Shown in pieces: positions 52,898 through 62,458 of a DNA stretch of 64,000 nucleotides. The translations under genes were made by a program, and so were the position numbers. The notes under the pieces were generated by a model that saw only the letters and a list, made by a program, of their open reading frames with translations, searched no databases and was not told where the DNA came from. Location: the NCBI GenBank assembly GCA_943356465.1, contig CALREX010000003.1, positions 46,450 through 110,449 of the forward strand, in the 5' to 3' direction. The DNA comes from Candidatus Peribacteria bacterium. GTDB lineage: Bacteria; Patescibacteriota; Gracilibacteria; UBA1369; LOWO2-01-FULL-3. The first letter of the stretch is position 1. Each line of letters begins with the position of its first letter.

Positions 52898-53395
52898 ATG
52901 AATAAACTACAACAAGGAAAAGAAGTGATTTACGCCTTTATAGACAGCCAAAATCTCAATCTTTCGATCCGCGATCAAGGCTGGAAACTGGATTTTGCAA
53001 AGTTCAGAAGATATCTTTCAGATAAATTTAAAGCAAAAAAAGCATTTTTATTTTTAGGATATGTCAGTTCAAATCAAAAACTATACCAATACTTAAAAGA
53101 AGCAGGTTATTCCATAATATTCAGACCAACAATAAATTTTAGAAATAACAAGATAAAAGGCAATATAGACGCAGAATTAGTACTTCATTCAATGATCCAA
53201 TACGAAAATTACAGTAAAGCCATAATTATAAGCAATGATGGAGATTTTTATTGTTTGATCAAACATCTAAGAAACAAAAACAAACTGCATAAAGTAATAA
53301 TTTCAAATAAAAATAATTTTTCTTCTCTACTAAAAAAATTTAGAAAACATATGTTCTACATGAACGATCTAAAACAAAAGCTAGAAATGAAATAA
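52898..53395 (+). CDS. NYN (LabA/DUF88-like) domain protein
   Basis: 165 aa. VIYAFIDSQNLNLSI...WKLDFAKFRRYL...KAFLFLGY...NIDAELVLHSM...IIISNDGDFYCLIKHL. Confidence 0.8.
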   Translation: MNKLQQGKEVIYAFIDSQNLNLSIRDQGWKLDFAKFRRYLSDKFKAKKAFLFLGYVSSNQKLYQYLKEAGYSIIFRPTINFRNNKIKGNIDAELVLHSMIQYENYSKAIIISNDGDFYCLIKHLRNKNKLHKVIISNKNNFSSLLKKFRKHMFYMNDLKQKLEMK

Positions 53396-53506
53396 TGAAA
53401 TAAAAAAGAGGGAGTAACCTTCGGACTATCCCTTAGGTGTGCCCTCTCATCGTGATTATCTACATAGTACAGATTCTAAAACAAAACTTCAACACAAATC
53501 TTTCTA

Positions 53507-53530
53507 TAAAGATTTTAAGAAAATTTAACA
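53507..53530 (+). repeat. 24-bp direct repeat, copy 2
   Basis: ataaagattttaagaaaatttaac, identical to 52816-52839. Confidence 0.9.
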
Positions 53531-53537
53531 TAAACAT

Positions 53538-53588
53538 GGGGATGAGGGATTTACCCCTCCGCTTCGCTCCGGGGCATAAACTTCGACT
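53538..53588 (-). repeat. tRNA-flank module: hairpin plus a 15-nt copy of the tRNA-Gln 3' end
   Basis: The minus strand reads tcgaagtttatgccccggagcgaagcggaggggtaaatccctcatcccca. Its last 15 nt (53538-53552 on +) are identical to 53648-53662 inside tRNA-Gln. Confidence 0.8.
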
Positions 53589-53604
53589 CTCTCTTCCCTC
53601 AAGA

Positions 53605-53644
53605 TTGAAAACCATCTCTGCCTTCGGCAGAGCCGATTTTCAAT
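53605..53644 (-). terminator. hairpin downstream of tRNA-Gln
   Basis: The core ctctgc (53617-53622) pairs with gcagag (53628-53633) across loop cttcg. The outer attgaaa (53605-53611) pairs with tttcaat (53638-53644). Confidence 0.5.
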
Positions 53645-53717
53645 GGCTGGGGATGAGGGATTCGAACCCCCGATGGTGGGACCAGAACCCACTGCCTTAC
53701 CACTTGGCCAATCCCCA
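53644..53717 (-). tRNA. tRNA-Gln (anticodon CUG)
   Basis: The reverse complement is TGGGGATTGGCCAAGTGGTAAGGCAGTGGGTTCTGGTCCCACCATCGGGGGTTCGAATCCCTCATCCCCAGCCA. It has a U1:A72 pair, anticodon loop TTCTGGT and an encoded CCA, and closely resembles E. coli tRNA-Gln. Confidence 0.93.
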
Positions 53718-62212: not shown

Positions 62213-62287
62213 TCCCGGGTGGCGCAGCGGTAGCGCAGCTCGCTGTTAACGAGTTGGTCGTCGGTTCGAATCCGACCCTGGGAGCCA
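62213..62287 (+). tRNA. tRNA-Asn (anticodon GUU)
   Basis: TCCCGGGTGGCGCAGCGGTAGCGCAGCTCGCTGTTAACGAGTTGGTCGTCGGTTCGAATCCGACCCTGGGAGCCA. It forms a clean cloverleaf with anticodon loop CTGTTAA and an encoded CCA. Confidence 0.93.
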
Positions 62288-62291
62288 TTTA

Positions 62292-62359
62292 AAAAACGAT
62301 GGACGCAAAGCGTTCAGCGGTTTTTAAAAACGATGGACGCAAAGCGTTCAGCGGTTTTT
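62292..62359. repeat. perfect tandem duplication of a 34-bp terminator-like hairpin
   Basis: aaaaacgatggacgcaaagcgttcagcggttttt occurs at 62292-62325 and again at 62326-62359. Each unit folds: A5C pairs with GT5, cgatgg/tcagcg pair, and acgc-aaa-gcgt forms the tip. Confidence 0.85.
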
Positions 62360-62373
62360 AAACATTGCTCGAC

Positions 62374-62458
62374 GAGGATTCGAAGTTTACACCCCGCATT
62401 GCGGGGTGAATCCGACATACATTATGCCCCGCAGCGAAGCGAAGGGGTGTATCCGACC
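62374..62458 (+). repeat. two tandem tRNA-flank modules (hairpin plus copy of the tRNA-Asn T-stem/acceptor junction)
   Basis: The first module is gaggattcgaagtttacaccccgcattgcggggtgaatccgaca. The second is atgccccgcagcgaagcgaaggggtgtatccgacc. gaatccgac and atccgacc repeat 62268-62277 of tRNA-Asn, and the second hairpin matches the tRNA-Gln flank module at 27 of 31 positions. Confidence 0.75.

What the first reader, a model, noticed from the sequence alone, without database searches (positions are those of the whole stretch)
62374..62458. Shared hairpin module downstream of two different tRNA genes, each fused to a copy of that tRNA's own 3' end
Seen in sequence.

Downstream of tRNA-Asn (plus strand):
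- First module: ...ttcgaagtttacaccccgc-att-gcggggtg-aatccgaca.
- Second module: atgccccgcagcgaagcgaaggggtgtatccgacc.

Downstream of tRNA-Gln (minus strand, 53588 to 53538):
- gtcgaagtttatgccccggagcgaagcggaggggtaaatccctcatcccca.

Shared between the two loci:
- tcgaagttta.
- atgccccg(c/g)agcgaagcg(a/g)aggggt..atcc, matching at 27 of 31 positions.

What follows the module is locus-specific:
- At tRNA-Gln, a 15-nt perfect copy of the T-stem/acceptor strand (53538-53552 equals 53648-53662).
- At tRNA-Asn, 9- and 8-nt copies of gaatccgac(c).
- The hairpin contains the GCGAAGC mini-hairpin core.

Established: tyrosine-integrase elements target the T-loop-to-3'-end of tRNA genes and leave direct repeats of exactly that segment.

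Inference: either these are footprints of one family of tRNA-targeting integrative elements (arm sequence plus att core) that has decayed to about 50 nt at both sites. Or this is a conserved 3'-trailer structure with a decoy acceptor strand that could compete for the tRNA 5' strand.
Basis: partly seen in the sequence, partly recalled or inferred. Interest (0 to 1): 0.6.

Follow-up and report, generated by a model that had tools for sequence, protein, structure and literature searches.

The report
Compact RtT-like tRNA-trailer hairpin element
The hairpins behind these two tRNA genes are copies of a small gene-less element that ends in a copy of the tRNA's own last bases; it follows a third of this bacterium's tRNA genes, occurs in many bacterial phyla, and is a miniature relative of the 'RtT' repeats of E. 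coli, whose function is still unknown.

Summary
The two sites are members of one element family. One copy sits behind tRNA-Gln(CUG). A decayed tandem pair sits behind tRNA-Asn.

In this 1.08-Mb Peregrinibacteria genome a covariance model finds 11 copies, all tied to a tRNA 3' end and none elsewhere.

Each unit has three parts:
- an arm that is the Watson-Crick complement of tRNA nt 59-65;
- a conserved junction, GA(U/C)GAGAAGUUUA or UCGAAGUUUA, plus a GC hairpin with a variable tip;
- a copy of the cognate tRNA's 3' end that starts exactly at A58 of the T loop.

The same plan occurs behind 29 tRNA species in Patescibacteria, Bacteroidota, Cyanobacteria, Proteobacteria and other phyla. It is present in about 7% of sampled genomes, often as tandem arrays, with no linked recombinase gene.

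E. coli RtT repeats (tyrT 178-bp repeats, Rfam RF00391) have the same architecture around a larger central domain. The Rfam model does not detect the compact form.

Best reading: a dispensable, gene-less RtT-like tRNA-trailer cassette that is gained, lost and amplified between the repeated tRNA ends. It folds on the tRNA-sense strand and is probably co-transcribed. It is not a decayed integrase scar. How it spreads and whether it has a function remain unknown.

The parts
53644..53717 (-). tRNA-Gln(CUG), CCA encoded
   Evidence: ARAGORN; Rfam tRNA, 60.7 bits
53605..53643 (-). Terminator-like hairpin hp1 (UUGAAAAUCGGCUCUGCC-GAA-GGCAGAGAUGGUUUUCAA). Its core, CUCUGCCGAAGGCAGAG, recurs in the units behind other tRNAs of this genus.
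   Evidence: Fold -20.5 kcal/mol, z -5.8; the same core follows Tyr, Val, Gln(UUG), Ser(GCU) and Lys(CUU)
53541..53599 (-). Gln module. 5' arm GAGGGA (53595-53600) pairs with TCCCTC (53544-53549). Junction ...GAGTCGAAGTTTA (53577-53594). Hairpin P2: TGCCCC (53571-53576), tip GGAGCGAAGCGGA, GGGGTA (52-57 of 535xx, i.e. 53552-53557).
   Evidence: Model R1 hit, 56.5 bits, E 4.8e-12 in the genome (G000:C3:99990-100048); sequence
53537..53551 (-). 15-nt perfect copy of tRNA-Gln A58 to A72 (AATCCCTCATCCCCA). It stops before the discriminator and CCA, and unrelated DNA with a NYN-domain gene follows.
   Evidence: Identical to 53648-53662; NYN domain in 52898-53395(+)
62213..62287 (+). tRNA-Asn(GUU), CCA encoded
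   Evidence: ARAGORN; Rfam tRNA, 66.4 bits
62288..62362 (+). Terminator-like hairpin present as 2.2 tandem copies of a 34-nt unit
   Evidence: TRF: period 34, 97% matches; fold z -5.1
62367..62419 (+). Asn module a. Arm GGATTC (62376-62381), junction GAAGTTTA (62382-62389), hairpin P2 (62391-62407), then GAATCCGAC (62408-62416), which equals tRNA-Asn G57 to C65. The copy is truncated after 9 nt.
   Evidence: Model R1 hit, 42.8 bits, E 2.8e-8 (G000:C3:108816-108868); fold z -2.65. The orthologous unit in G001 is intact, with GAATCCGACCCTGGGAGCCA (L038).
62423..62458 (+). Asn module b, degenerate second unit. Hairpin TATGCCCC-GCAGCGAAGCGAA-GGGGTGTA, then ATCCGACC (62451-62458), which equals tRNA-Asn A59 to C66. 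It lacks the GAGAAGTTTA junction and the 5' arm.
   Evidence: Sequence; fold. The hairpin with the GCAGCG(A/C)AGCGAA tip is the same as in the Gln(CUG) unit and the Ser(UGA)-type unit at C4:44-102.

Best explanation
Both sites carry copies of a compact RtT-like tRNA-trailer element: a gene-less unit of about 50-100 nt that sits 3' of a tRNA gene on the same strand.

Shown:
- The unit consists of (i) often its own terminator-like hairpin; (ii) a 5-12-nt arm that is the Watson-Crick complement of tRNA nt 59-65 and beyond; (iii) a conserved junction, GA(U/C)GAGAAGUUUA or UCGAAGUUUA, plus a GC hairpin with a variable tip; (iv) a copy of the cognate tRNA from A58 of the T loop to its 3' end, sometimes running on through the trailer and terminator.
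- The unit is therefore flanked by direct repeats of the tRNA's 3' end.
- It is gained, lost, truncated and amplified into tandem arrays between close relatives.
- It is patchy: about 7% of sampled genomes in two phyla.
- It has the same architecture as the E. coli RtT repeats.

Inferred:
- It is a dispensable, semi-selfish cassette. It spreads among tRNA genes and between genomes by recombination through the repeated tRNA ends.
- The arm and the copy are kept matched to the neighbouring tRNA by conversion and hairpin-templated correction.
- The conserved junction and hairpin, folded on the tRNA-sense strand, are the part recognised by a still unknown trans-acting host factor.
- Read-through transcription would give an RNA with a tRNA-like 3' end, as published for RtT.

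In this window the Gln copy is nearly intact. The Asn locus holds two decaying units.
For: Inventory and tRNA link:
- 11 model hits in G000, all at tRNA 3' ends; 10 of 38 tRNA genes are followed by a unit.
- Of 126 copies with a same-strand tRNA in the locus, 110 lie within 150 nt of it. They follow 29 tRNA species.

Anatomy:
- Identity with the tRNA starts 2 nt 5' of T60 (at A58) in 81 of 102 copies. It starts 3 nt 5' in 20 more, where the module has a G. The right end is variable, from 0 to +68 nt past the tRNA end.
- At tRNA G.U pairs the arm has the complement A in 25 cases and the copy G in 2.
- P2 is 99.6% paired in 104 distinct copies, with compensatory changes and with G.U only on the tRNA-sense strand. 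Shuffle and slide controls fall well below the observed values.

Gain, loss and decay:
- tRNA-Lys(UUU) in G002 has a 98-nt unit flanked by a 26-nt repeat. The site is empty in G000, G001, G004 and G005.
- Copy number within the genus ranges from 3 to 11.
- The Asn unit has decayed in G000. The Lys(CUU) unit is truncated in G004.
- Arrays reach 7-12 copies.
- Cargo sometimes lies between units, for example a RhuM/Fic gene.

No linked gene: the most widespread protein family near the units occurs in only 8 of 119 loci.

RtT link:
- Sequence.
- RF00391 hits at 134-137 bits.
- Model R1 hits the three E. coli repeats at E 4e-4.
- The E. coli proK locus is polymorphic for one unit.
- RtT homologues give Northern signals next to tRNA-Asn and tRNA-Lys genes in Actinobacillus (PMC4986893).
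Against: - No enzyme or mechanism of spread was identified.
- The element was not found on phage or plasmid records. There is one likely true hit in viral contigs, and it looks like a host junction.
- Conservation of a 10-nt single-stranded motif from E. coli to the candidate phyla radiation (CPR), together with sense-strand G.U pairs, would also fit a functional RNA.
- Some units are kept at orthologous sites across species, with compensatory hairpin changes (tRNA-Tyr in G000, G001 and G003).
A terminator-like hairpin usually lies between the tRNA and the unit.
- RF00391 itself does not reach its threshold on any copy here, so homology with RtT rests on shared architecture and a weak cross-hit.
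Confidence: 0.6

Rival explanations
1. The unit is a functional small RNA or cis-acting trailer. It is co-transcribed with the tRNA and trimmed to the copied tRNA 3' end. It then acts as a mimic of the tRNA T-arm and 3' end, for example by titrating a factor that reads uncharged CCA ends or tRNA 3'-processing enzymes, or by punctuating tRNA operon transcripts.
For: - The hairpin covaries, and G.U pairs occur only on the tRNA-sense strand.
- The junction motif is conserved across phyla.
- Literature reports E. coli RtT as an RNA released from tRNA operon transcripts, with a hint of an effect on the stringent response. Actinobacillus homologues give Northern signals (PMC4986893; 10.1101/2024.07.17.603846).
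- In tandem units each copied 3' end is followed by its own hairpin, as the tRNA is.
- The tRNA-Tyr unit is retained in three species.
Against: - It is present in only about 7% of sampled genomes in two phyla.
- Copy number differs 3-11 among congeners.
- Copies decay, are truncated or are absent at the same tRNA in sister species.
- Arrays of up to 12 identical units look like amplification, not dosage design.
- The acceptor strand of the copy is mostly unpaired, so the unit is not a true minihelix.
- A terminator usually precedes the unit.
Confidence: 0.25
2. The units are scars (attR-type junctions) or cis-mobilisable remnants of tRNA-integrating islands or phages. An integrase supplied in trans moves them. 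The hairpin is part of attP and the tRNA 3' end is the crossover core.
For: - The direct repeats of the tRNA 3' end begin in the T loop, which I recall (not re-read here) as a classic crossover sublocation for tRNA-integrating integrases.
- Diverged units occur in tandem with identical cores.
- Genes occasionally lie between units.
- Synteny breaks downstream of the unit.
Against: - No integrase is linked in 119 loci.
- G000 has only two tyrosine recombinases and one large serine recombinase for 11-13 units.
- One conserved core serves 29 tRNA species.
- The T loop of the copy is replaced by 35-60 nt, so the two arms cannot form a normal core site.
- The element is absent from phage and plasmid collections.
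- The His island, and probably one at Ser(UGA), lie between the tRNA and its unit and so use the tRNA itself.
Confidence: 0.1
3. The units are retro-copies. A reverse transcriptase copies the tRNA or pre-tRNA 3' end up to a block at A58, switches to the hairpin RNA, and the product recombines back behind the gene.
For: - The left boundary at A58/A59 gives an 18-19-nt copy. From memory, this is the length of tRNA that retroviral plus-strand synthesis copies before m1A58.
- The right boundary often coincides with the tRNA end or the end of the terminator.
Against: - Where tRNA genes lack CCA, the copies lack it too and carry the genomic trailer instead.
- Reverse transcriptase presence does not track the element in family f1. 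At least five carriers have none (G001, G018, G043-G045), and many non-carriers have one.
Confidence: 0.03

Closest known systems
E. coli RtT RNA / tyrT-operon 178-bp repeats (Rfam RF00391; annotated 'RtT sRNA' in RefSeq)
   Same: - It lies 3' of tRNA genes on the same strand.
- The outer helix forms between an upstream arm and the copied T-stem 3' strand.
- The junction is GAUGAGAAG(C/U)UU.
- An inner GCGAAGCG-type motif is present.
- It ends in UAAUCC plus the cognate tRNA's 3' end, starting at A58.
- The trailer and terminator are repeated, tandem units occur, and units behind several different tRNAs (Tyr, Pro, Lys, Ser) each carry their own tRNA's end.
- Copy number is polymorphic.
   Different: - The RtT central domain is about 85 nt; here the hairpin is 15-35 nt.
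- RF00391 gives no hit at E<=1 in this genome, and among 14 control genomes it hits only E. coli.
- RtT carries the small tpr reading frame, and the compact units have no reading frame.
- The compact form occurs in Patescibacteria, Bacteroidota, Cyanobacteria and other phyla.
Displaced tRNA 3' fragments (attL/attR repeats) of tRNA-integrating islands, and cis-mobilisable elements formed by accretion
   Same: Both show direct repeats of the tRNA 3' end that begin in the T loop and can extend past the gene. Both show tandem accretion and sit at hot spots of variable DNA.
   Different: The compact unit has no integrase and usually no cargo. One conserved core serves many tRNAs. The copied T arm has its loop replaced by a conserved junction and hairpin.
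Integron attC sites (resemblance of form only)
   Same: Both have two stacked helices separated by an unpaired conserved spacer, a variable terminal loop of 3 to more than 40 nt, folding of one specific strand, a boundary of partner-derived sequence at the inner end of the outer helix, arrays, and units with or without a gene.
   Different: No integron integrase was found, no GTTRRRY core is present, and the target is a tRNA T loop. This comparison rests on my memory of attC anatomy and was not tested.
REP/BIME-type intergenic hairpin repeats and MITEs
   Same: All are short, gene-less, hairpin-forming repeats in multiple copies.
   Different: The compact unit is found only at tRNA 3' ends. 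Part of each copy is templated by its target. No terminal inverted repeats of fixed sequence are present.

Membership tests
RtT family (Rfam RF00391), strict sense | Scores at or above the RF00391 gathering threshold (45 bits) | tested here: not met
   There is no RtT hit at E<=10 at either window locus. There are 0 hits at E<=1 in the whole genome, against 13 over the cut-off in E. coli K-12.
RtT family, broad sense (architecture) | Lies 3' of a tRNA gene on the same strand and ends in a copy of that tRNA's own 3' end | tested here: met
   Window. Genome. 110 of 126 copies lie within 150 nt of a same-strand tRNA, and identity starts at A58. E. coli tyrV and proK units obey the same rule.
RtT family, broad sense (architecture) | Outer helix between an upstream arm and the copied T-stem strand, followed by the junction GAUGAGAAG(C/U)UU | tested here: met
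   P1 covaries with tRNA identity. The RF00391 consensus shows GgGaaGGAUGAGAAcCUU ... UaAUCCuuCcC. The CPR-built model R1 hits all three E. coli repeats at 17 bits, E 4e-4 in 1.6 kb.
RtT family, broad sense (architecture) | Large central domain of about 85-90 nt | tested here: not met
   The hairpin and its tip are 15-35 nt in the window copies.
RtT family | Released as a stable RNA during tRNA operon processing | not testable with these tools
The claim is published only for E. coli and Actinobacillus (PMC4986893).
Integrase att scar of a tRNA-integrating element | Integrase gene or element body between or beside the repeats; one element family targets one tRNA | tested here: not met
   No protein family is shared by more than 8 of 119 loci. 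The units follow 29 tRNA species. The genes next to the window units are a NYN-domain gene, a glycosyltransferase and others.
Integrase att scar of a tRNA-integrating element | Direct repeat of the tRNA 3' end that begins in the T loop or anticodon loop | tested here: met
   The boundary is at A58 in 101 of 102 copies.
Generic REP-like repeat | Dispersed at many intergenic sites regardless of the neighbouring gene | tested here: not met
   All 11 model hits in G000 carry a tRNA 3' end. Non-tRNA hits of the 10-mer lack the hairpin.
tRNA minihelix (acceptor plus T arm) | A 5' strand pairs with the whole acceptor 3' strand, leaving an NCCA overhang | tested here: not met
   Complementarity reaches only 5-12 nt from nt 59 in most of 146 copies.

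The most novel reading that the evidence does not exclude
The compact units and RtT together form a pan-bacterial class of programmable, gene-less cassettes. A conserved junction and hairpin, folded on the tRNA-sense strand as single-stranded DNA or RNA, is recognised by an unidentified and widely distributed trans-acting enzyme. That enzyme breaks and joins at A58 of the T loop. The flanking arm (complement of nt 59-65) and the copied 3' end specify which tRNA gene is targeted. This would be a structure-specific recombination system analogous to integron attC cassettes, but aimed at tRNA genes.
Probability: 0.15. Interest if true: 0.85.

Novelty: new variant of a known kind. Interest (0 to 1): 0.55.

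Why it matters
From memory, RtT repeats have been known in E. coli since the late 1970s, yet they still have no accepted function or origin (function unknown also per PMC4986893). Rfam models them only for enterobacteria and their close relatives.

The same plan exists in miniature behind many tRNA genes in distant phyla. It shows three strict rules:
- the boundary with the tRNA copy lies at A58;
- the arm is complementary to the tRNA rather than copied from it;
- the hairpin folds on the tRNA-sense strand.

This gives a minimal core for experiments and a comparative data set to find the partner factor.

It also has practical value. These units mimic att-site scars and partial tRNA genes, so they can mislead island prediction and tRNA annotation, especially in small CPR genomes. 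In this genome a third of the tRNA genes carry one.

Tried and rejected
- Rfam at E<=10 on both loci gave only tRNA and noise.
- Scans of viral contigs with two patterns gave 0 and 3 hits. One of the three is a true module, at what looks like a host or prophage junction.
- BLAST of a consensus against the phage and plasmid collections gave nothing real.
- A literature string search for the motif found nothing relevant. Searches on minihelix terms and on RtT terms were mostly noise. Bösl & Kersten 1991 is not held.
- Clustering of ORFs within 8 kb of 119 loci found no shared family.
- Origin from mature tRNA was rejected. CCA-less tRNA genes have CCA-less copies with the genomic trailer. The one apparent counter-example (tRNA-Asp, L070; CTA in the gene, CCA in the copy) is a single base difference.
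- Reverse transcriptase presence shows no relation to module presence.
- A direct-inverted-direct triplication, with the spacer as a full inverted copy of the target, was rejected because complementarity stops after 5-12 nt.
- A decoy attB role is not supported. The His island, and probably one at Ser(UGA), lie between the tRNA and its unit, so they integrated into the tRNA itself.
- Hammerhead and hairpin-ribozyme cores, and the XerD arm of dif, were compared by eye with sequences recalled from memory. They matched in only 6-8 nt, and I place no weight on them.

Full report
**Observation**

The window holds tRNA-Gln(CUG) at 53644-53717 (-) and tRNA-Asn(GUU) at 62213-62287 (+).

- TCGAAGTTTA occurs three times in the window against 0.26 expected, and no shuffle reaches three.
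- At tRNA-Asn the copies are GAATCCGAC (62408-62416) and ATCCGACC (62451-62458).

**Genome-wide picture**

The window is C3:46450-110449 of a 1.08-Mb, 36% GC, 7-contig genome with 38 tRNA genes. Earlier notes of this scan call it Peregrinibacteria, a lineage of the candidate phyla radiation (CPR). I did not test the taxonomy.

Printing the 3' flank of every tRNA showed the same arrangement behind Ser(GGA), Tyr, Val(UAC), Gln(UUG), Gln(CUG), Asn, Ser(GCU), Glu(CUC) and Lys(CUU), and a truncated one behind Glu(UUC). The arrangement is:

- the tRNA;
- usually a long hairpin with a CUCUGCC-GAA-GGCAGAG core;
- a short spacer;
- the motif GA(T)GAGAAGTTTA or TCGAAGTTTA;
- a GC hairpin;
- then AATCC and the rest of that tRNA's own 3' end, usually through CCA.

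Two more copies carry the 3' ends of tRNA-His and tRNA-Ser(UGA) but lie away from those genes.

- The His-type copy lies 15.5 kb from tRNA-His. The intervening DNA encodes a large serine recombinase next to the tRNA and a primase-polymerase, and it is bounded by a 15-nt repeat of the tRNA end. This is an ordinary island that integrated between the tRNA and its unit.
- The Ser(UGA)-type copy is at the very start of contig C4, preceded by a 6-nt remnant, CCGCCA.

**Structure**

I aligned 22 copies from the genus (A1).

- Helix P1 pairs the segment 5' of the motif with the AATCC... strand.
- Helix P2 is the GC hairpin.
- Both are supported by covariation. 91.7% of cells are paired, and no shuffle or slid register comes near this.

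A covariance model (R1) gave these results:

- 11 copies in this genome and 3-10 in five congeners;
- hits in 13 of 56 genomes of the family;
- hits in 27 of 401 genomes sampled across the phylum.

Every hit I inspected lies behind a tRNA and carries that tRNA's 3' end. Tandem arrays are frequent.

The tRNA-Asn unit of sister genome G001 is intact and ends in GAATCCGACCCTGGGAGCCA. The two units in the window are therefore decayed versions of that unit.

**Breadth**

These came from Bacteroidota (including cultured Salinimicrobium), Cyanobacteria, Gammaproteobacteria, Chlorobiota, Armatimonadota, Bdellovibrionota, Firmicutes metagenome-assembled genomes and many CPR lineages. Almost all true hits lie 10-110 nt behind a tRNA.

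A second model (R2) built from 114 such copies found the element in 15 of 201 Bacteroidota genomes. It also found 2-16 copies, with arrays of up to 12, in eight carriers.

**Rules extracted from 157 non-redundant copies**

- 110 of 126 copies with a same-strand tRNA in the locus lie within 150 nt of it. They follow 29 tRNA species.
- Identity with the tRNA begins at A58 of the T loop. It starts two bases 5' of T60 in 81 of 102 copies, and three bases 5' in 20 more where the module happens to have a G.
- The right end of the identity is variable. It ranges from the tRNA end to 68 nt beyond, often through the terminator.
- The arm is not a copy of the tRNA's T-stem 5' strand. Where the tRNA has a G.U pair, the arm has the complement A in 25 cases and G in 2.
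- The two bases before GAGAAG pair with T-loop nt 59-60 (AT with AT, AC with GT).
- The arm's complementarity extends only 5-12 nt, so the acceptor strand of the copy is mostly unpaired.
- In 104 distinct copies from many phyla, P2 is 99.6% paired, with many double changes. Its G.U pairs would be A.C mismatches on the other strand, so the tRNA-sense strand is the one that folds.

**Dynamics**

- tRNA-Lys(UUU) of G002 carries a 98-nt unit with its own hairpin, flanked by a 26-nt repeat (A58 to CCA plus TAAAAAA). G000, G001, G004 and G005 have the empty site with the native terminator.
- tRNA-Gln(CUG) of G002 has no unit and has different downstream DNA.
- tRNA-Lys(CUU) shows every state:
  - one unit in G000 and in G005;
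  - two diverged units with identical 19-nt tRNA ends in G003;
  - a unit truncated by a different trailer repeat in G004;
  - no unit in G001 and G002.
- The tRNA-Tyr unit sits at an orthologous site in three species. Its hairpin shows compensatory changes. In G001, where the tRNA's T stem has changed, both strands of P1 have changed with it.
- Genes sometimes lie between units: a RhuM/Fic gene and a secreted protein.

**No linked enzyme**

- ORFs within 8 kb of 119 loci share no family in more than 8 loci.
- G000 has two tyrosine recombinases, one reverse transcriptase and the island's serine recombinase.
- Reverse transcriptase presence does not track the element in the family.
- The element is absent from the phage and plasmid collections.
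- It is almost absent from viral contigs.

**Identity**

Earlier notes of this scan suggested a link to E. coli RtT, and I tested it.

The tyrV trailer reads GGGGAAGGAT-GAGAAGCTTC-[about 85 nt including GCGAAGCG]-GAGT-AATCCTTCCCCCACCACCA, repeated three times. It therefore has an arm complementary to nt 59-68, the same junction, and a copy of the tRNA from A58.

- RF00391 scores these repeats at 134-137 bits.
- My CPR-built model R1 hits all three at E 4e-4.
- The proK unit follows the same rules with the tRNA-Pro end and a repeated terminator.
- RF00391 hits K-12 behind tyrTV, proK, the Lys tRNAs of the lysT operon and serX.
- RF00391 gives nothing in G000 and nothing at the window loci.
- Among 5,426 E. 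coli genomes the proK locus differs by one 168-nt unit.
- Published work describes RtT as an RNA released from tRNA operon transcripts, with function unknown. Homologues next to tRNA-Asn and tRNA-Lys genes in Actinobacillus give Northern signals (PMC4986893; also 10.1101/2024.07.17.603846).

**Interpretation**

The two window sites belong to a compact, widely distributed variant of the RtT kind.

Several features fit a dispensable cassette that propagates at the DNA level through its flanking repeats:

- patchy occurrence;
- copy-number differences between congeners;
- decay of individual copies;
- tandem arrays;
- gain at a naive tRNA.

The conserved junction, the covarying sense-strand hairpin and the RtT precedent fit a transcribed, structured RNA. 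The two readings are not exclusive.

I commit to the cassette reading as primary (0.6). A functional RNA is the main rival (0.25). An integrase scar (0.1) and a retro-copy (0.03) are minor rivals.

The mechanism that keeps the arm complementary to the tRNA is inferred, not shown. I propose conversion from the adjacent tRNA plus hairpin-templated correction.

**Limits**

- The key 1991 RtT paper is not held.
- Prevalence figures come from searches with strict filters and are lower bounds.

Noticed in passing
G000 C2:163553-179250 (outside the window; locus L075): A 15.5-kb island lies between tRNA-His and its displaced RtT-like unit. It encodes a 529-aa large serine recombinase beside the tRNA, a Prim-Pol primase, two subtilases and an SLH-anchored Ig-repeat protein. 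It is bounded by the repeat TAACTCACCCCAGAA.
   Followed up: partly
G000 C2:11361-11470 and C2:95553-95660; G004 tRNA-Lys(CUU) trailer (L209): A second, unrelated tRNA-trailing repeat with two hairpins (AAGAAAACCTTTT..AAAAGGTTTTCTTCCTTTCCAAAA.ATTATGG.GTTTTT.GC.TTGGGAACCCGCGAGACCCAA) follows tRNA-Leu(GAG) and tRNA-Met. In G004 it has overwritten most of an RtT-like unit.
   Followed up: partly
G000 C1:55700-55832 (minus strand, 3' of tRNA-Trp): tRNA-Trp is followed by a partial copy of itself, from the anticodon arm to CCA. The copy has a 2-nt insertion in the T loop (TTCTAGAATCC). A third, shorter copy follows, and each is preceded by AAGGGGACTAGTA. This is a different kind of tRNA 3' reiteration.
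   Followed up: no
window 52898-53395 (+): A 165-aa NYN-domain (PIN-like RNase) gene lies directly after the truncated tRNA-Gln 3' copy, convergent with the tRNA. This gene and about 30 nt at the junction (53501-53534) are multi-copy in all five sister genomes.
   Followed up: partly
window 62288-62362 (+): The terminator-like hairpin after tRNA-Asn is tandemly duplicated (34-nt period, 2.2 copies, 97% identical).
   Followed up: yes
G000 C4:1-102 and C1:247422-256666: The unit carrying the tRNA-Ser(UGA) 3' end sits at the start of contig C4, after only a CCGCCA remnant. tRNA-Ser(UGA) itself is near the end of contig C1, with a tyrosine recombinase 6 kb downstream (C1:253327-253794). The two contigs may join across another island in this tRNA.
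   Followed up: no
L054 (G300), 1560-2970: A RhuM/Fic-domain gene (335 aa) lies between two identical RtT-like units behind tRNA-Gln(CUG). It is an example of a unit pair enclosing cargo.
   Followed up: partly
L162 (Prolixibacteraceae) and G469 C1:4645410-4646412 (Cyclobacteriaceae): These loci hold long tandem arrays of the unit: 7 copies with a 114-nt period behind tRNA-Arg(UCU), and 12 copies with a 66-nt period.
   Followed up: no
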